DNA from: a virus
IMG/VR virus record: IMGVR_UViG_3300025133_000027
Span: 112,255-176,254 of that record
DNA: 64,000 nucleotides
Reading direction: 5' to 3' (one strand)
Each line of letters starts with the position of its first letter. Position 1 is the stretch's first letter. Shown here piece after piece: positions 2,613 to 63,327 of the stretch. Below the pieces are notes generated by a model. That model saw only the letters and a list, made by a program, of their open reading frames with translations, did not search any database and was not told where the DNA came from. The translations under genes were made by a program, and so were the position numbers.

Positions 2613-3210
2613 TAAATATGTTCTTACAGAGTATCGAGTGTTCGATAATAGCCACCCAGAACTATTAACCGAAGCTGAAAAGCTTGAAATGGCTAATGGT
2701 TCCGTTATGTATCTCACTGGTGTTATGCAGAGAGCAGACGCTGAGAATGGAAATGGAAGAGTCTACCCGATGGAGATTCTTGAGCGTGAAGTTGAGAACT
2801 ATAAGAAACTCGTAAAAGAGCATCGCTCATATGGTGAATTAGATCACCCTGATAGTCCTATTGTAGAACTACAAAAAGCTTCTCACTTCGTAACTCACAT
2901 TGAGATGAAAGGTAAAGAAGTCATTGGCAAGATTAAGTTGATGGATACCGATACAGGCAGGAACGCTCAAGGTATTGTAAGAAGTGGCGGAATGCTTTCG
3001 ATTTCATCACGAGGACTTGGCTCTACAACTCAGAAGAATGGTAAGACTTATGTTCAAGATGATTACCAATTAGTATGTTTTGATCTTGTCTCAGAGCCTT
3101 CAACGGCTGGTGCTTACATGCTTAAGGAAGGAAAAGTTCCTTCAATAGATAATAAAGGGGACCGAATCAATAGAGCCCTAAACAACGTATTGCGTTCATG
3201 GAATAAATAA
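2605..3210 (+). CDS. gp21: Prohead core protease, T4 gp21-like
   Basis: NGNGRVYP, GELDHP, ISSRGLGS and FDLVSEPS motifs. Confidence 0.92.
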   Translation: MSNKYVLTEYRVFDNSHPELLTEAEKLEMANGSVMYLTGVMQRADAENGNGRVYPMEILEREVENYKKLVKEHRSYGELDHPDSPIVELQKASHFVTHIEMKGKEVIGKIKLMDTDTGRNAQGIVRSGGMLSISSRGLGSTTQKNGKTYVQDDYQLVCFDLVSEPSTAGAYMLKEGKVPSIDNKGDRINRALNNVLRSWNK

Positions 3211-3707
3211 TGACCAGTAAGAGAGCTAAAATGAAGATGATGATGAAGCCGATTATCAAGGAATTGATTGCAGAGCTTCTATTTGAAGAAGGTGTCCTAT
3301 CTTCTATTATTAGAGAAGTCGCTATTGCTTCTGGTCCAGTTCTCACAGAATCAAGAAGCGCTCCTCAACGAAGAGCCAAGGAGCTTCCAGAAGGTGCACA
3401 GGCTAGAGAATCTAGAGAAGCCAGTGAGGCTATGATTCGTAAGATTAGAAACGAAGGCTCAAGAGAAGTAACTTCCTCAAGAGCACGAGACCAGTTTGAA
3501 AAATCAGGTATGGGAAGTTTCTTTGAGGGCACTGCACCTCTCAAAACAAAGGGTGTTGTCAATGAAGGACGAAGTGGCGGCGGTGGCTTAACTGCTCCAA
3601 GCCCACTCGCAGGCATAGACCCTGATGACGAAGGTGTCAACATCGACGCGCTTGACAAACTACTCGGAAATAAATGGGGTGAAATCGCTAAAAGGTTGGA
3701 GGACTAA
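3210..3707 (+). CDS. Hypothetical head-associated protein
   Basis: 165 aa; IIKE/IIRE/VLTE motifs; coupled to the protease gene. Confidence 0.65.
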   Translation: MTSKRAKMKMMMKPIIKELIAELLFEEGVLSSIIREVAIASGPVLTESRSAPQRRAKELPEGAQARESREASEAMIRKIRNEGSREVTSSRARDQFEKSGMGSFFEGTAPLKTKGVVNEGRSGGGGLTAPSPLAGIDPDDEGVNIDALDKLLGNKWGEIAKRLED

Positions 3708-3950
3708 TTGAGTAACGAAAGAAAAACACATAAAAAAGCACCTGTTAACGTTGAGGTTATCAATCATGGACGTGACAGTTTTAAGGTGATCCGAAGATTT
3801 ATGAAGAAAGTCAAGAATGAAGGACTGATGCAAGAGCTAAGAGATCGTAGATATTATGAAAAACCATCAGAAAAAAGACGTAAGCGCAAATTAAGAAGGA
3901 TTAAAGTTCTTAAAAAATTAAGAAAGGAGACAGAAAAAAATGCCGGATAG
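3708..3950 (+). CDS. rpsU: Phage-encoded ribosomal protein bS21
   Basis: IRRFMKKV...ELRDRRYYEKPSEKRRKRK is the bS21 signature; TTG start with GGAGG RBS. Confidence 0.9.
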   Translation: MSNERKTHKKAPVNVEVINHGRDSFKVIRRFMKKVKNEGLMQELRDRRYYEKPSEKRRKRKLRRIKVLKKLRKETEKNAG

Positions 3951-4353
3951 CAATATACAAGTAAGAGTTGGTCTTGGAAATGTTGGTTCTTACCAAGTTA
4001 GTGGAGTTCCGTTTGCTTCAAGCTCAATCGCCTGTGCGATAAATTCTTCAGCACCAACACAAGTTTCATTTCCAAATGTAACTAAAGAAATTATAATTAA
4101 AAACACCAGTGGAGTAAGTGTAGATTTGCGTGTCGGGTTTAGTGAAAATGGAGTATTTGACGCTCTTGGCGAGAAGTATTTCTTTACTCTTGCAAATGGA
4201 GAATCTTACAGCTCTTCAGTAAGATGCACAAGTGTATTCTTATTATCAGACAGTGGAACTATCCCAGCATCAGCTAGTGTAATAGCCGCTTTAACCGGAA
4301 TCCCTGCGAGTAGACTACCTGAAAACTGGTCAGGCTCAGTTGGAATTGGATAG
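3940..4353 (+). CDS. Putative virion accessory or decoration protein
   Basis: 137 aa, Ser/Gly/Val-rich beta-type sequence within the head cluster. Confidence 0.5.
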   Translation: MPDSNIQVRVGLGNVGSYQVSGVPFASSSIACAINSSAPTQVSFPNVTKEIIIKNTSGVSVDLRVGFSENGVFDALGEKYFFTLANGESYSSSVRCTSVFLLSDSGTIPASASVIAALTGIPASRLPENWSGSVGIG

Positions 4354-47416: not shown

Positions 47417-48556
47417 ATGGAGACAAACATGACAAAGCCCGGTGATACCTTAATGGATGAAATTTTTTCGAAAAAGAAAAGAATAAATATATTGAATACT
47501 CTCATTAGAGAGTCTATATCTGATTTTCGGTCAGAGTCTCAGAAAGAACCCAGGACTATTAATTTCCCAACTTTCAAATTCACAACAAAAACAGGAGTTC
47601 CTGATACAAAAGATCGTGTTCACTTCGAGAAGATAGCTAGGGGTATCAAAGGGGATACTGTTAAAGACAAGCTCACTAATTTAGATAGAGCCTTATATCC
47701 AAGGAATGGTAGCACAGGGCAGGTTGGATTAGATCACTTAATATCAAGCCTAATGATTTCAGATATTATGCTCGGGATGGTTCAGAACTTCAACAGATCT
47801 GCTGCTGGTTTCTTGTTTGAAACATTCTGTGCTGCCTTGTTCGAAGGCACTTCAGACGGCTTTGGTGGCATTAATAATGTACCAGACGTTGCAATTCAGA
47901 TTATAAAAGGATACGAGGGAGAACTCCCACTTATTCCAGTTTCACTTAAATTAAGAGCACCAAATTCAGACCTTAGTGGTAGTTTCACAAATTTACTTAA
48001 GTATTTTAATAAGGAAAGAGAATTATTCCACTTAATAGGTGAAAAAATAGTAGACAAAAATTCTCTTAAAAGAGTTGAATTTTATGCCTACAGACTTACT
48101 GCGGATCCTTATCATTTCGGGAAGGACATAAATAATTTGGACAAACTATTGATGATTACAAGAGAGCAGGAAAAACAAGCCCTGCCAACTGTAAGAGATA
48201 TGCAAAGTCGATTCTTGAATAATATTTGGAAAGAAAAGGAACTCAAGGGAACCAAAGACGAATTTAAGTTAGAAAAAACATTTAGAATCCCAGCAAAAAC
48301 CTGGAAGAATTCCTCTACATATCTTGGCGCAATCATAATTGACGAAGAGTTCTTAGCTAGAAATACAAGTAGATATCTAGAAACTTTCCAAACTAACGTC
48401 GAGGAGATCTTTGACACACTAAAGACCTTGACAGAAAGCATGTCCTACTATTATACTGATGCTGAGAACAAATTCGAACACGGTAGGCAGGCCAGAGAAA
48501 AGTCTGCACACTTAAAAGAGTTGGTTCATGAAGAAATTACTATGGAGGGTAAATGA
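47417..48556 (+). CDS. Late protein, possible PD-(D/E)xK nuclease fold
   Basis: GFLFE.F.A.L..G...VPDV...VSLK spacing. Confidence 0.45.
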   Translation: METNMTKPGDTLMDEIFSKKKRINILNTLIRESISDFRSESQKEPRTINFPTFKFTTKTGVPDTKDRVHFEKIARGIKGDTVKDKLTNLDRALYPRNGSTGQVGLDHLISSLMISDIMLGMVQNFNRSAAGFLFETFCAALFEGTSDGFGGINNVPDVAIQIIKGYEGELPLIPVSLKLRAPNSDLSGSFTNLLKYFNKERELFHLIGEKIVDKNSLKRVEFYAYRLTADPYHFGKDINNLDKLLMITREQEKQALPTVRDMQSRFLNNIWKEKELKGTKDEFKLEKTFRIPAKTWKNSSTYLGAIIIDEEFLARNTSRYLETFQTNVEEIFDTLKTLTESMSYYYTDAENKFEHGRQAREKSAHLKELVHEEITMEGK

Positions 48557-50133
48557 GTGAGTTTAATAAGGTTTTCTCAAATAATCAAGAGTTGTTTGAG
48601 AAGTTACAAGAAGGTGTTGGCAAGTTAGCAGACAACGTAGCTACGACACTTGGGCCAGCAGGAAGAAATGTGATCCTGCAACAGAAAGGTCGTAAACCCT
48701 TTATTACAAAGGACGGAGTTACGGTTGCTAAATTTGTGAGTTTAGAAGATCCTGTCGAGGATTTAGGCGCTCAGATTGTTAAAGAAGTTGCCTTAAAAAC
48801 TAACGAACAGGCTGGTGATGGAACTACTACTTCTATCGTTCTTGCAAGAGAACTTCTTAAAAACTCAGGTAGGGCTCTAAAAGAGCAGCATCGTCCAATC
48901 GATCTCAAGAGAGGCATGGATTATGCTCTTGAAGATGTGATTTCTTATCTAACCTCCAATTCGATTGCAGTCAAGTCTCTCGATGATATTAAGAATGTTG
49001 CCAAGATATCAGCTAATAATGATGAATCCATTGGAGAACTAATCAGGATGGCAATAGACCAAGCTGGAAAGAATGGAGCGATCTCAATTGAAGAAGCGCG
49101 CCAAGCAGAGACTGAGCTTGAGCTTAGAGAAGGCTTCAGGTTTGACGCAGGCTGGTCTTCCCAAGAATTTACGAATGACGAGAAAGGTAAACAAACTAAG
49201 TTTAATGACTCTCTTGTATTTGTTTCTGAAAAGCCACTTGAAAGTATTCAAGAAATCATGCCTATGTTAGAGAAGGCAGCTAGAGAAACAAGGCCGTTAT
49301 TTATTGTTGCAGAGGATTATTCAAAAGAGGTTCTTGCTGGATTCATCATGAATGCTTCTAGGGGAACAATGAAAGTCTGTGTAGTTAAGGCTCCCTTATA
49401 CGGGCAAGAGCGCAGAAACTTGCTCAGTGACTTGGCGATTAGTGTTGGTGCTAAGTTGTATAATCGGAAGAATACGCTTGATCTAAAGAACTTTAAACTA
49501 GAGGATTTTGGTAAGGCGGATAATATCGAAGTAACTAAAACATCAACAACAATTATTGGTGGAATGGGCGATGAAGAAGAACTAGACGCTCGCATTGAAA
49601 GTTTAAAGGAAGACATCAAAGAGGAAGATGATTTTAGTATTTGTGAGCAAATCCAAGAGCGTATAACTAGACTTAGTAGTGGCGTTGCTATTATTAAAGT
49701 TGGTGCATCATCTGAGATCGAATTGATTGAGAAAAAGCACCGAATTGAAGATGCCTTGGAGGCTGTAGGTGCCGCGCAGAAGAGCGGGATACATGCTGGC
49801 GGCGGTGTTGCTCTTATGAGGGCACAACGAGCCATGAAGAAGAAAGTAAAAGGAGAGACCGAAGCAGAGCGCGTCGGCTATCTTGTTGTTTTAGAATCGC
49901 TATCAGCACCGCTCAAGCAGATGTGTACGAACGCAGGGATTAGTAATCAAGTTGTTGATAAAGTTACTAGGATGAAAGGCAACTATGGCTATGATATTAA
50001 GTCAAATAAGAAAGTTGACATGGTTAAGATCGGGATCATTGATCCAGTGGCGGTAACATGCTCTGCTTTGATTAACGCAGTTTCTGTCGTTTCAACAGTT
50101 GTGACAACAAACTATGCAATCTTGGAGACTTAA
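48553..50133 (+). CDS. groEL: Chaperonin GroEL
   Basis: TLGP.GRNV, TKDGVTVA, AGDGTTT, ISANND and GGGVAL motifs; no GGM tail. Confidence 0.96.
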   Translation: MSEFNKVFSNNQELFEKLQEGVGKLADNVATTLGPAGRNVILQQKGRKPFITKDGVTVAKFVSLEDPVEDLGAQIVKEVALKTNEQAGDGTTTSIVLARELLKNSGRALKEQHRPIDLKRGMDYALEDVISYLTSNSIAVKSLDDIKNVAKISANNDESIGELIRMAIDQAGKNGAISIEEARQAETELELREGFRFDAGWSSQEFTNDEKGKQTKFNDSLVFVSEKPLESIQEIMPMLEKAARETRPLFIVAEDYSKEVLAGFIMNASRGTMKVCVVKAPLYGQERRNLLSDLAISVGAKLYNRKNTLDLKNFKLEDFGKADNIEVTKTSTTIIGGMGDEEELDARIESLKEDIKEEDDFSICEQIQERITRLSSGVAIIKVGASSEIELIEKKHRIEDALEAVGAAQKSGIHAGGGVALMRAQRAMKKKVKGETEAERVGYLVVLESLSAPLKQMCTNAGISNQVVDKVTRMKGNYGYDIKSNKKVDMVKIGIIDPVAVTCSALINAVSVVSTVVTTNYAILET

Positions 50134-62569: not shown

Positions 62570-62598
62570 TTGCAAGAAAGTCCCCTCCACGCTATGAT
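62570..62598 (+). promoter_or_regulatory. sigma70 promoter of the tRNA operon
   Basis: TTGCAA-N17-TATGAT, 15 nt before tRNA-Leu. Confidence 0.7.
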
Positions 62599-62613: not shown

Positions 62614-62694
62614 GCTGGTGTGGTGGAATGGTAGACACGCTGGTTTTAGGTACCAGTGCCGCAAGGCGTGCAGGTTCAAGTCCTGTCACCAGTA
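62614..62694 (+). tRNA. tRNA-Leu(TAG)
   Basis: Acceptor GCTGGTG/CACCAGT; anticodon arm CTGGT-TTTAGGT-ACCAG; variable arm; TTCAAGT loop; no encoded CCA. Confidence 0.93.
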
Positions 62695-62703
62695 CCGTAA
62701 GGA

Positions 62704-62755
62704 AGCATCCTGAATAAGATGTTACAGCTTGTTTTCAGCGAGTAAAAACTATTCA
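62704..62755 (+). ncRNA. Pseudoknot motif copy 1
   Basis: AGCATC-CTGAATAA-GATGTT...AAAAAC-TATTCA. Confidence 0.65.
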
Positions 62756-62874
62756 ACATACGAAAGGGAACTTCAAGTGAGTTCCTCCTGTTTAGAGTTA
62801 TATCCTCTAAACAGATTTGACAATTGAATACAATAGCAGCACAGGTGTGAAATAATCATCTAGTGCTGCTCTAT

Positions 62875-62958
62875 GCGAGAGTGGTGGAATGGTATACACA
62901 GGACACTTAAAATGTTCTGGCCTTTATGGCCATGCGGGTTCGATTCCCGTCTCTCGTA
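62875..62958 (+). tRNA. tRNA-Leu(TAA)
   Basis: Acceptor GCGAGAG/CTCTCGT; GGACA-CTTAAAA-TGTTC; variable arm; TTCGATT loop; no encoded CCA. Confidence 0.93.
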
Positions 62959-62963
62959 CTGTT

Positions 62964-63006
62964 TTCCCTGAGCATGGAGTCCGACACATTAGGACATAAC
63001 TGCTTA
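62964..63006 (+). ncRNA. Pseudoknot motif copy 2
   Basis: TTCC-CTGAGCAT-GGAG, hairpin GTCC/GGAC, ATAAC-TGCTTA. Confidence 0.65.
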
Positions 63007-63008
63007 AC

Positions 63009-63083
63009 GCGAATAAGGATCATTTGGTAGATCATCTGCCTTCCAAGCAGACCATCGTGCGGGTTCGAACCCCGCTATTCGCT
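63009..63083 (+). tRNA. tRNA-Gly(TCC), atypical
   Basis: Acceptor GCGAATA/TATTCGC; TCTGC-CTTCCAA-GCAGA; GCGGG-TTCGAAC-CCCGC; U73. Confidence 0.88.
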
Positions 63084-63107
63084 CTGACCCTCCTAAATAT
63101 GAGGACA

Positions 63108-63154
63108 TCTCCAGAACATCTGCTCTGATGAGACCGAAACCGAAAAACTGTTTA
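63108..63154 (+). ncRNA. Degenerate pseudoknot motif copy 3
   Basis: TCTC-CAGAACA...GAGA...AAAAAC-TGTTTA. Confidence 0.35.
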
Positions 63155-63160
63155 TGACCA

Positions 63161-63222
63161 GTAATCCTGAATAAGATTATGTTCTCCTGGGCGTGCAAAG
63201 CTTCGGAGATTAAAACTGTTCA
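63161..63222 (+). ncRNA. Pseudoknot motif copy 4
   Basis: GTAATC-CTGAATAA-GATTAT, hairpin TCTCC/GGAGA, AAAAC-TGTTCA. Confidence 0.65.
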
Positions 63223-63226
63223 ATAT

Positions 63227-63300
63227 CTATGTGTGGCGAAATTTGGTATCGCGCTCCGTTTGGGTCGGAGAGATTGGAGGTTCAAATCCTCTCACATAGA
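63227..63300 (+). tRNA. tRNA-Pro(TGG)
   Basis: Acceptor CTATGTG/CACATAG; CTCCG-TTTGGGT-CGGAG; TTCAAAT loop; no encoded CCA. Confidence 0.93.
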
Positions 63301-63327
63301 CCTTATAGACTTCAAGAAGGGTTTACT

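What the first reader, a model, noticed from the sequence alone, without database searches (positions are those of the whole stretch)
62704..63222. Covarying H-type pseudoknot RNA repeated 3-4 times in the tRNA spacers
Seen: three clear copies (62704-62755, 62964-63006, 63161-63222) and one degenerate copy (63108-63154) share one architecture. It is a P1 stem, an 8 nt loop CUGARYAW, a variable P2 hairpin, an A-rich linker ending AAC, and 6 nt complementary to the loop. P1 differs in every copy but stays paired (AGCATC/GATGTT, TTCC/GGAG, GTAATC/GATTAT). The pseudoknot helix covaries (TGAATA:TATTCA, TGAGCA:TGCTTA, TGAATA:TGTTCA). Copy 2 fills almost the whole Leu-Gly spacer, and copies 2 and 4 end 2-4 nt before the next tRNA, so tRNA processing would release them as discrete small RNAs. 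Inference: structure-selected RNAs, possibly self-cleaving or processing elements, exonuclease blocks, or decoys for host defence proteins (compare the pseudoknotted ToxI antitoxins of type III TA systems and their phage mimics). I cannot assign the motif to a named family from memory.
Basis: partly seen in the sequence, partly recalled or inferred. Interest (0 to 1): 0.88.

Follow-up and report, generated by a model that had tools for sequence, protein, structure and literature searches.

The report
Widespread phage pseudoknot RNA in tRNA array
The tRNA spacers of this marine phage hold four copies (at least 13 in the whole genome) of a small pseudoknotted RNA from a large, uncatalogued family that phages place just after genes and just before tRNAs or start codons. 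Its function is untested.

Summary
All four window copies are complete. The "degenerate" one was mis-delimited and really spans 63089-63154.

A strict descriptor finds 9 copies on the + strand, 0 on the - strand and about 0.2 in shuffles. All lie in a tRNA/GOLLD RNA array that runs across the two ends of the 176-kb record. Relaxed scans add at least four more copies.

The same module occurs in hundreds of IMG/VR contigs and in MAG contigs of many phyla. It has a 4-6 bp P1 closed by C-G and an 8-nt loop C-U-N4-A-N. AAAC follows, then 6 nt that pair with loop positions 2-7.

Both helices covary in searches that did not require them. Rfam 15 has no match.

In other phages the compact ~30-nt form starts 4-9 nt after a stop codon. 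It ends 3-13 nt before a tRNA, 10-50 nt before a start codon, or directly before a U-tract (23% of cases).

My best guess (about 0.3) is a nuclease-resistant boundary cap for RNA ends made by RNase P or by termination. ToxI-like, ribozyme and riboswitch readings are not supported.

The scan flagged the same family at the other end of this genome. What looks like the same family was also flagged in other genomes.

The parts
62704..62755 (+). Pseudoknot copy 1. P1 AGCAUC/GAUGUU, loop CUGAAUAA, 26-nt linker containing a small hairpin and ending AAAAAC, PK strand UAUUCA. Starts 7 nt after tRNA-Leu(UAG).
62964..63006 (+). Pseudoknot copy 2. P1 UUCC/GGAG, loop CUGAGCAU (the family consensus loop), 21-nt linker containing a hairpin and ending AUAAC, PK strand UGCUUA. 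Starts 4 nt after tRNA-Leu(UAA) and ends 2 nt before tRNA-Gly.
63089..63154 (+). Pseudoknot copy 3, re-delimited. P1 CCUC/GAGG, loop CUAAAUAU, 44-nt linker ending AAAAAC, PK strand UGUUUA. Starts 4 nt after tRNA-Gly. A strain variant in other marine metagenomes lacks 41 nt here (P1 and loop).
63161..63222 (+). Pseudoknot copy 4. P1 GUAAUC/GAUUAU, loop CUGAAUAA, 36-nt linker with a hairpin UCUCC...GGAGA and ending UAAAAC, PK strand UGUUCA. Ends 4 nt before tRNA-Pro.
62614..62696 (+). tRNA-Leu(UAG), first gene of this part of the array. A promoter-like site lies at 62570-62598. No CCA is encoded.
62875..62959 (+). tRNA-Leu(UAA)
63009..63084 (+). tRNA-Gly(UCC)
63227..63302 (+). tRNA-Pro(UGG)

Best explanation
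Shown: the four elements are members of a large, uncatalogued family of compact H-type pseudoknot RNAs, transcribed with the tRNAs from the + strand. The family anatomy, 5' to 3', is:
- P1, 4-6 bp of free sequence, always closed by C-G.
- One invariant C.
- Six loop bases that form the second helix; its end pairs U-A/G and A-U are fixed and its inner pairs covary.
- One free base, then P1'.
- An A-rich strand ending in invariant AAAC. In this phage it carries an optional hairpin insert.
- The 6-nt partner strand.

Inferred mechanism: the two helices stack. The A-rich strand lies in the minor groove of P1, as in luteoviral and preQ1-type pseudoknots. This gives a small, mechanically tough knot that serves as a boundary cap for RNA ends.

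When RNase P cuts at the 5' end of the tRNA 2-13 nt downstream, or when RNA polymerase stops at a U-tract just after the knot, the upstream RNA ends in the pseudoknot. It is then shielded from 3'-to-5' exonucleases. Where the knot lies in front of a ribosome-binding site, it would likewise shield and insulate the 5' side of the downstream RNA.

In this phage's dense tRNA array, the copies are the structured spacers left between RNase P and 3'-end cuts. They would be released as discrete 45-70-nt RNAs.

The confidence given (0.3) is for the inferred mechanism. That the elements are a real, covarying pseudoknot family I hold at above 0.9.
For: Structure:
- 9 vs 0 strand-specific hits, about 0.2 expected.
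- A pattern that specified only the loop and tail retrieved 95 unique IMG/VR instances. Of these, 91 have at least 3 contiguous P1 pairs, against 3/95 in a reversed control. The P1 sequences are highly diverse.
- A scan that specified only P1, the loop C and AAAC gave 52/118 rows with 5-6 of 6 pseudoknot pairs, against 4/118 in the control. Compensatory variants include UGAGUA:UACUCA, UGACCA:UGGUCA, UGGACA:UGUCCA and UGGGCA:UGCCCA.
- On 143 distinct model hits, P1 pairs 5-18 and 6-17 are never unpaired and use all four Watson-Crick types.
- AAAC precedes the partner strand in 161 of 204 hits found without requiring it.

Placement, over 263 unique contexts:
- 34 have a tRNA starting 3-13 nt downstream. 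Only 1 has a tRNA within 300 nt upstream.
- 71 of 193 have the stop codon of a long upstream ORF 4-9 nt before P1.
- TTTT lies within 12 nt after the knot in 23%, against 4.8% of random windows.
- In long spacers the knot hugs the upstream stop (22 cases) more often than the downstream start or tRNA (10 cases).
- After DUF932 genes, aquatic phages carry the knot where Streptomyces phages carry ordinary hairpin-plus-U terminators.
- In Firmicutes-assigned MAG contigs, probably prophages, the knot abuts the 5' end of the DUF2800 RNA.

In this genome: ORF 2961-3284, then the knot at 3299-3357, then tRNA-Glu at 3360.
Against: - There is no expression or end-mapping data. No RNA run holds the locus.
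- The mechanism is inferred from position only.
- Inside this phage's array there is usually no mRNA upstream to protect, so a cap role there is not obviously useful.
- 61 of 93 long-spacer cases hug neither flank under my crude ORF calls.
- About 77 copies lie 10-50 nt before a start codon, which fits a 5' leader role equally well.
- A plain GC hairpin would also block exonucleases. The fixed C, AAAC and end pairs may instead mark a binding site for a protein, an enzyme or a ligand.
- My retrieval patterns fixed UGAGCA/UGCUCA and AAAAC. The family sample is therefore biased toward one subtype.
Confidence: 0.3

Rival explanations
1. Cis-acting element on the nascent transcript that modifies RNA polymerase or termination, working like the HK022 put RNAs or the rrn leader antiterminators. 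It would keep polymerase reading through highly structured, untranslated tRNA/ncRNA arrays and operon junctions.
For: - The motif sits at the head of transcription units in some lineages. TANNNT hexamers are enriched 8-13 nt upstream of P1.
- It is repeated before many units in untranslated arrays.
- The common partner strand plus downstream bases (UGCUCAUUUAAAC) resembles rrn boxA. That resemblance is from my own knowledge.
- An earlier scan note drew the same analogy.
Against: - The partner strand is base-paired and covaries (UGCCCA, UGUUCA, UGGUCA, UCCCU). A single-stranded boxA read by NusB/NusE should not covary.
- The copies in this window have no boxA-like tail.
- 23% of copies are followed by a U-tract, which makes them look like terminators rather than antiterminators.
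- A tight 4-9 nt spacing to the upstream stop codon is not expected for such an element.
Confidence: 0.15
2. Binding site (aptamer) for a conserved protein, enzyme or small molecule. Examples: a riboswitch-like sensor with a preQ1-I-like fold, or a docking site for RNase P or a ribosomal protein. The fixed C, AAAC and helix-end pairs would form the pocket.
For: - The topology and the A-rich strand ending AAAAC-U are the same as in preQ1-I riboswitches (from my own knowledge of the published structures).
- The invariant bases cluster at the helix junction.
- The family spans phages and MAG contigs of many phyla. That would fit a universal partner.
Against: - No Rfam riboswitch model matches, even at E up to 10 on a 101-nt search.
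- Downstream genes are unrelated: helicases, RNA polymerase, integrase, nucleases and many unknowns, in 60 clusters.
- Downstream features also include tRNAs and another ncRNA. This does not fit one metabolite's regulon.
- No expression platform that competes with the knot was seen.
Confidence: 0.15
3. Passive folding insulator or spacer. It would be a self-contained fold that keeps neighbouring tRNAs and ribosome-binding sites from mispairing with flanking RNA, and keeps untranslated RNA structured (for example to avoid Rho loading), with no specific partner.
For: - It always lies in short spacers next to elements that must fold or stay open.
- P1 sequence is free.
- Copy 3 is missing in a natural strain variant, so single copies are dispensable.
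Against: It does not explain why the same loop, AAAC and closing pair are kept across very distant phages. It does not explain the U-tract enrichment either.
Confidence: 0.15
4. Decoy or antitoxin-like RNA against host defence nucleases (ToxI-type pseudoknot mimic or anticodon-nuclease decoy), or a small self-cleaving ribozyme.
For: - Repeated pseudoknot units lie in a phage tRNA region.
- P1 plus its loop loosely resembles an anticodon arm with an 8-nt loop.
- A CUGAUGAG...GAAAC string lies in the insert of copy 3.
Against: - The units are diverged, not tandem identical.
- No ToxN family gene was found in the record (weak because the control genomes did not ring).
- Most relatives are single copies in operon spacers.
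- No Rfam model of any kind, ribozyme models included, gave a hit.
- The hammerhead-like string lacks a stem II.
Confidence: 0.07

Closest known systems
MALAT1 / MEN-beta 3' end: A-rich triple helix followed by a tRNA-like mascRNA cut by RNase P (from my own knowledge)
   Same: A compact structure using an A-rich strand lies a few nucleotides upstream of a tRNA(-like) fold. RNase P cleavage there would leave the upstream RNA ending in that structure.
   Different: MALAT1 is eukaryotic and uses a U.A-U major-groove triple helix, not an H-type pseudoknot. Here the tRNAs are real. Neither cleavage nor protection has been shown for the phage element.
TMV upstream pseudoknot domain and TYMV UPSK (Rfam RF00390) in front of the viral tRNA-like structure
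   Same: The order is the same: ORF stop codon, one or more H-type pseudoknots, then a tRNA-shaped fold. In plant viruses the pseudoknots stabilise the RNA and aid translation.
   Different: Those are plant RNA virus 3' UTRs, where the tRNA-like end stays attached. No sequence or model match here.
T-even phage gene 32 mRNA leader pseudoknot (from my own knowledge)
   Same: A phage H-type pseudoknot with a one-nucleotide first loop spanning a 6-7 bp second helix. It sits in a leader near an RNase E cut and is associated with a very stable mRNA.
   Different: The gene 32 knot is a single-gene operator that nucleates gp32 binding. This family precedes many unrelated genes, tRNAs and ncRNAs.
preQ1-I riboswitch (Rfam RF00522) and luteoviral frameshift pseudoknots
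   Same: A minimal H-type pseudoknot with an A-rich third loop ending AAAAC next to the second helix. Size is about 30-35 nt.
   Different: No covariance-model hit, no que-gene context and no slippery site or overlapping ORF. The loop lengths differ: 1 nt / 1 nt / 5-6 nt here.
T4 species 1 and 2 stable RNAs (rnaC, rnaD), and GOLLD/ROOL RNAs of phage tRNA islands
   Same: Non-tRNA structured RNAs encoded inside phage tRNA clusters, co-transcribed and released by tRNA processing. A GOLLD RNA lies in the same array of this phage.
   Different: Those are single, larger RNAs (about 120-800 nt). This is a ~30-65-nt module that is repeated many times and also used outside tRNA clusters.

Membership tests
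Any Rfam 15 family | Covariance-model match at or near the gathering score | tested here: not met
   Only tRNAs matched in the window at gathering thresholds. Nothing overlapped the copies at E up to 10. The compact relative L122:3380-3480 gave only E 2.6 and 8.1 chance hits.
ToxI-type antitoxin RNA (type III toxin-antitoxin) | Tandem array of near-identical ~34-45-nt units | tested here: not met
   The copies differ in P1, in the pseudoknot helix and in length (43-66 nt). They are separated by tRNAs.
ToxI-type antitoxin RNA (type III toxin-antitoxin) | Adjacent ToxN/AbiQ-family endoribonuclease gene | tested here: inconclusive
   No PF13958 match in the 176-kb record. The control genomes did not ring either.
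preQ1-I riboswitch | H-type pseudoknot with an A-rich tail | tested here: met
   The topology and the AAAAC tail are seen in all copies.
preQ1-I riboswitch | Match to RF00522 and a position upstream of queuosine/preQ1 genes | tested here: not met
   No model hit. Downstream features are tRNAs, a DUF2800 RNA and 60 unrelated gene clusters.
Pistol / hammerhead / other small self-cleaving ribozymes | Conserved catalytic core and extra helices (pistol P2/P3 with a G-U site; hammerhead three-way junction) | tested here: not met
   No Rfam ribozyme hit. Nothing is conserved after the partner strand except 'not G' and U-richness.
Programmed -1 frameshift or readthrough pseudoknot | Lies 5-9 nt after a slippery heptamer or leaky stop, with an extended reading frame through it | tested here: not met
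   The window copies lie between tRNAs. In relatives the spacing to a stop codon is 4-9 nt, but the in-frame extension is mostly 0-20 codons.
Intrinsic (Rho-independent) terminator | Stable helix directly followed by a U-tract | tested here: inconclusive
   None of the four window copies has a U-tract. 61 of 263 relatives have TTTT within 12 nt, against 4.8% of random windows.
GOLLD RNA (RF02032) | Match to the GOLLD model | tested here: not met
   GOLLD is a separate gene at genome 2355-2797 (175.7 bits). The pseudoknot copies lie outside it, except one relaxed-scan copy at 2820-2851 that starts just after its 3' end.

The most novel reading that the evidence does not exclude
Phages of many bacterial phyla use a ~30-nt A-minor pseudoknot as a stand-alone end cap for RNA. 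Placed just upstream of a tRNA or a U-tract, it turns RNase P cleavage or termination into a nuclease-proof 3' end. That would be a bacterial-virus counterpart of the MALAT1 triple helix/mascRNA system and of plant-virus pseudoknot-plus-tRNA-like 3' ends. In tRNA arrays the released caps could accumulate as abundant small RNAs with a further trans role.
Probability: 0.2. Interest if true: 0.85.

Novelty: categorically new. Interest (0 to 1): 0.7.

Why it matters
[quoted passage not shown] It occurs in hundreds of viral contigs and in MAG contigs from Saccharibacteria to Firmicutes, Actinobacteria and cyanobacteria.

It is small enough (about 30 nt) for direct structural and biochemical work. 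Both helices already have strong comparative support.

Knowing what it does would explain the 'junk' spacers of phage tRNA arrays. It would improve phage genome annotation, since intergenic elements and operon boundaries could be marked. It might also supply a compact natural part for stabilising or insulating RNAs in synthetic biology.

It also gives a concrete, testable link between tRNA processing and mRNA end formation in bacteria.

Tried and rejected
- Rfam at gathering and at permissive E-value thresholds gave nothing on the motif, for the window copies and for a compact relative.
- The first IMG/VR pattern (loop CTGAATAW plus AAAACTRTTCA) returned mostly chance matches. Only 3 of about 112 loci had a flanking stem.
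- blastn of the 34-nt compact form against GenBank phages found no match.
- The covariance model R1 finds compact copies well. It scores the window's long-insert copies at only 11-19 bits or splits them, so it is not a good detector for this phage's variants.
- Sequencing runs: the locus is held only by marine DNA runs and no RNA run holds it, so nothing can be said about expression or ends.
- Cultured relatives lack the motif. Pelagibacter phage HTVC109P is 76% identical in RNA polymerase to a motif-bearing contig and has none. Streptomyces phages Evy and SparkleGoddess, which carry the DUF932 gene, have none either.
- ToxN family search in the record found nothing, and the control was silent.
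- Full-text search for the consensus strings found only unrelated primers. Searches on GOLLD/tRNA/pseudoknot found no description of this motif.
- Nested-only folding gives weak z-scores (-0.7 to -1.7) because it cannot score pseudoknots, so I did not use it as evidence.
- The hammerhead-like CUGAUGAG...GAAAC in copy 3 was rejected: it has no stem II and no model hit.
- The boxA-like reading of UGCUCAUUUAAAC was rejected as a general feature, because that strand is paired and covaries.
- About 58% of the genome contigs pattern matches (69 of 119) have fewer than 3 P1 pairs and are chance, so I do not use them for host range.

Full report
**What is in the window.** The stretch 62614-63302 holds four tRNA genes on the + strand: Leu-UAG, Leu-UAA, Gly-UCC and Pro-UGG. 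None encodes CCA.

The spacers hold four elements with one architecture. Each has a stem P1, an 8-nt loop beginning CU and carrying A at position 7, and the return strand of P1. A linker ending in (A)AAC follows, then six bases complementary to loop positions 2-7.

The 'degenerate' copy was mis-delimited. Read from 63089 it is complete: CCUC / CUAAAUAU / GAGG, a 44-nt linker ending AAAAAC, then UGUUUA, with six pseudoknot pairs.

G-U pairs occur in both helices. That fits an RNA made from the + strand together with the tRNAs.

**Is it more than chance?** The window is the right-hand 64 kb of a 176,254-bp IMG/VR virus record, 97% complete and 38% G+C.

I scanned the whole record with a strict descriptor. 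It required a stem of at least 4 bp, a loop CTNANNAN, AAC within 70 nt and at least 5 contiguous pseudoknot pairs. It gave 9 hits on the + strand, none on the - strand, and 0-1 (mean about 0.2) in twenty shuffled genomes. All nine lie at genome 174958-175476 (the window) or 3299-4303.

The tRNA region therefore runs across the two ends of the record. The left end has four more called tRNAs, several odd tRNA-like genes, and a GOLLD RNA. The GOLLD match is RF02032, 175.7 bits, at genome 2355-2797, with a tRNA embedded.

Relaxed scans add further copies:
- 1671-1728.
- 2820-2851, with loop CUGGGGAU and tail AAAC-UCCCU, a fully different second helix.
- 3906-3976.
- Two copies in which the insert lies between the loop and the P1 return strand, about 1601-1660 and 4164-4230.

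In all, at least 13 copies. An earlier first-stage note on the other end of this genome lists about 11 copies at nearly the same places. I re-derived them independently.

**It is a very large family.** Rfam 15 has no match at any threshold.

A pattern built on one paralog (CCTCCTGAGCAYGAGG...AAACTG) found 51 IMG/VR loci. Most carry a compact 34-nt form, CCUC-CUGAGCAU-GAGG-ACGCAAAAAC-UGCUCA.

A second pattern specified only the loop and tail (CTGAGCAW N4-12 AAAACTGCTCA). Of 95 unique instances, 91 have at least three contiguous pairs flanking the loop, and 79 have four or more. A reversed control gave 3 of 95. The stems are extremely diverse (AUUC/GAAU, ACAC/GUGU, CGAC/GUCG and so on) and always close with C-G. 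This is covariation for P1 that the search did not impose.

I then ran the converse scan on the fetched loci, requiring only P1, the loop's first C and AAAC. Among loops that differed from the search patterns, 52 of 118 rows had 5-6 of 6 pseudoknot pairs, against 4 of 118 in a control. Compensatory forms include UGAGUA:UACUCA, UAAGCA:UGCUUA, UGAACA:UGUUCA, UGACCA:UGGUCA, UGGACA:UGUCCA and UGGGCA:UGCCCA.

On 143 distinct hits of a model that pairs P1 only, two P1 positions are never unpaired and use all four Watson-Crick types. The structure beats every shuffle on four of five measures and exceeds every slid register on four of the five. The same holds for ten paralogs and relatives in alignment A1.

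AAAC directly precedes the partner strand in 161 of 204 hits found without asking for it. The remaining 43 look like chance, apart from window copy 2 (UAAC).

The invariant features are the closing C-G, the loop's C1, U2 and A7, AAAC, and the first U of the partner strand. The base after the knot is never G, which would pair with C1.

The long inserts in this phage's copies are the unusual feature. Most relatives have only 4-10 nt between P1' and the partner strand.

The same pattern in bacterial and archaeal genome assemblies gave 119 loci. Only 50 of them have a P1 of at least 3 bp. These lie on contigs of Saccharibacteria, Parcubacteria, Atribacterota, Aminicenantes, Firmicutes, Actinobacteria and Synechococcus assemblies, probably phages or prophages. 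The rest are the chance matches expected for so large a collection.

**Where the family sits.** I examined 263 unique contexts from viral contigs.
- Copies in one locus are nearly always co-oriented. Only 8 of 163 loci have hits on both strands.
- 34 have a tRNA gene starting 3-13 nt downstream. Only one has a tRNA within 300 nt upstream.
- About 77 have a Shine-Dalgarno plus start codon 10-50 nt downstream.
- The downstream genes fall into 60 unrelated clusters. They include a DnaB-like helicase, other helicases, a T7-type RNA polymerase, integrase, resolvase, nucleases and many unknowns.
- 71 of the 193 copies with a long upstream ORF begin 4-9 nt after its stop codon. There is no meaningful in-frame extension.
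- 23% have TTTT within 12 nt after the knot, against 4.8% of random windows.
- In spacers long enough to tell, the knot hugs the upstream stop (22 cases) more often than the downstream start or tRNA (10 cases). Most cases (61) hug neither by my crude gene calls.

Two recurrent arrangements stand out. The first is a DUF932 gene (PF06067, phrog_1221), then the knot, then a tRNA. In Streptomyces phages the same gene is followed instead by an ordinary GC hairpin plus U-tract. The second is in Firmicutes-assigned MAG contigs, probably prophages, where the knot abuts the first base of the DUF2800 RNA, RF02960.

In some lineages a -10-like hexamer lies 8-13 nt upstream of P1.

In this genome the spacing to the downstream tRNA or tRNA-like gene is 2-9 nt. 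That is tighter than the spacing to the upstream tRNA, 4-83 nt. One copy shows the ORF-knot-tRNA order: ORF 2961-3284, knot 3299-3357, tRNA-Glu 3360.

**How it most likely works.** What is shown is a small, strand-specific H-type pseudoknot under strong selection for both helices and for a handful of junction bases. It is placed at boundaries: just after coding regions, and just before tRNAs, another ncRNA, ribosome-binding sites or U-tracts.

The rest is inference. The geometry is that of classical compact pseudoknots, in which the A-rich strand packs into the minor groove of the first helix. Here a one-base first loop crosses a 6-bp helix, and an A-rich 5-6-nt third loop crosses a 4-5-bp helix. 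Comparable published structures are the luteoviral frameshift pseudoknots, preQ1-I and T-even gene 32 (from my own knowledge). Such knots are mechanically tough.

Two independent contexts, a tRNA 5' end (the RNase P site) and a U-tract, would each create an RNA 3' end a few bases after the knot. The knot also follows stop codons closely. I therefore favour a boundary-cap role. It would protect the upstream RNA's new 3' end from exonucleases, and where it precedes a ribosome-binding site it would shield and insulate the downstream RNA's 5' side.

The closest functional parallels are the MALAT1 triple helix with its RNase P-cleaved tRNA-like mascRNA, and the pseudoknot domain in front of plant-virus tRNA-like ends.

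I put this at about 0.3. In this phage's array there is usually no mRNA to protect. There the copies are probably processed out as 45-70-nt RNAs, and their benefit may be different or additional.

**Rivals.**
- A put- or boxA-like action on RNA polymerase, about 0.15. It is weakened by covariation of the supposedly recognised strand and by the U-tracts.
- An aptamer for a conserved partner or ligand, about 0.15. It has the preQ1-I-like topology, but no model hit, no coherent regulon and no expression platform.
- A passive folding insulator, about 0.15. It does not explain the fixed bases.
- A ToxI-like decoy or a ribozyme, about 0.07. The units are not tandem identical, no ToxN gene was found (weak control), no ribozyme model hits, and the CUGAUGAG...GAAAC string in copy 3 lacks a stem II.

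**Other data.** The locus is found in marine metagenome DNA runs only. No RNA run holds it, so expression and ends could not be examined.

Contigs from two other marine studies carry a near-identical strain that lacks 41 nt, 63081-63121 give or take 7 nt, between two GCTCTGA repeats. The deletion removes P1 and the loop of copy 3, so single copies are dispensable or in flux.

**Novelty.** I found no Rfam family, no GenBank phage match and no paper describing this motif.

Within this scan, the same element was flagged at the other end of this genome. What appears to be the same family was followed up in another genome, described as a pseudoknot module that phages place in front of tRNA and protein genes. 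Those notes are not independent evidence.

I rate it as a new RNA family whose fold type is familiar and whose function is open.

Noticed in passing
L004 (genome 1-6000): 2355-2797, probably starting near 1920: GOLLD RNA (RF02032, 175.7 bits, E 1e-48) with a tRNA embedded at 2420-2489 and a promoter-like site at 1884-1912. It lies in the same tRNA array, which wraps across the ends of the record.
   Followed up: partly
L004 about 3566-3676, 3777-3850, 3980-4057: tRNA-like genes that ARAGORN did not call. They have acceptor and T arms with odd or enlarged middles. 3980-4057 scores 26.4 bits on the Rfam tRNA model, below the 29-bit cut-off. Each is preceded by a pseudoknot copy 3-9 nt upstream.
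   Followed up: no
window 63081-63121 (give or take 7 nt): Contigs in two other marine metagenome runs join 63080 to 63122 between two GCTCTGA repeats. This is a natural strain variant that lacks P1 and the loop of pseudoknot copy 3.
   Followed up: partly
window 62755-62762, and L004 1655, 1729, 3557, 4231: In this phage many copies are followed at once by (C)AUAC or AAAC and then G/C, for example UAUUCA-ACAUAC-GAAAGG and UGUUCA-CAUAC-GAUUUCGG. This lineage-specific 3' extension is not seen in the compact relatives.
   Followed up: no
window 62766-62874: Between copy 1 and tRNA-Leu(UAA) lie three strong hairpins. One is a 9-bp perfect stem, AGCAGCACA...UGUGCUGCU at 62835-62871, which drew a spurious mir-15 hit. 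They match no family.
   Followed up: no
L371:888-1071, L312:5408-5592, L327:5051-5232, L387: In Firmicutes-assigned MAG contigs (probably prophages) the pseudoknot abuts the 5' end of the DUF2800 RNA motif (RF02960, 121-157 bits). The two may form one transcript or unit.
   Followed up: partly
L225:2750-3763(-), L270:6869-7942, L159 (minus strand) and many others: Recurrent synteny in aquatic phage contigs: a DUF932 gene (PF06067, phrog_1221, about 340 aa), then the pseudoknot 4-12 nt after its stop, then a tRNA 3-13 nt later (often Asp-like). The function of DUF932 is unknown.
   Followed up: partly
L004 225-1019 and 1020-1538; window 48553-50133: Two tandem ORFs at the left end are built of about 23-aa repeats (..HREDGPA..) and look MORN-like. 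The phage also encodes a GroEL-type chaperonin (phrog_5725, E 2.5e-139).
   Followed up: no
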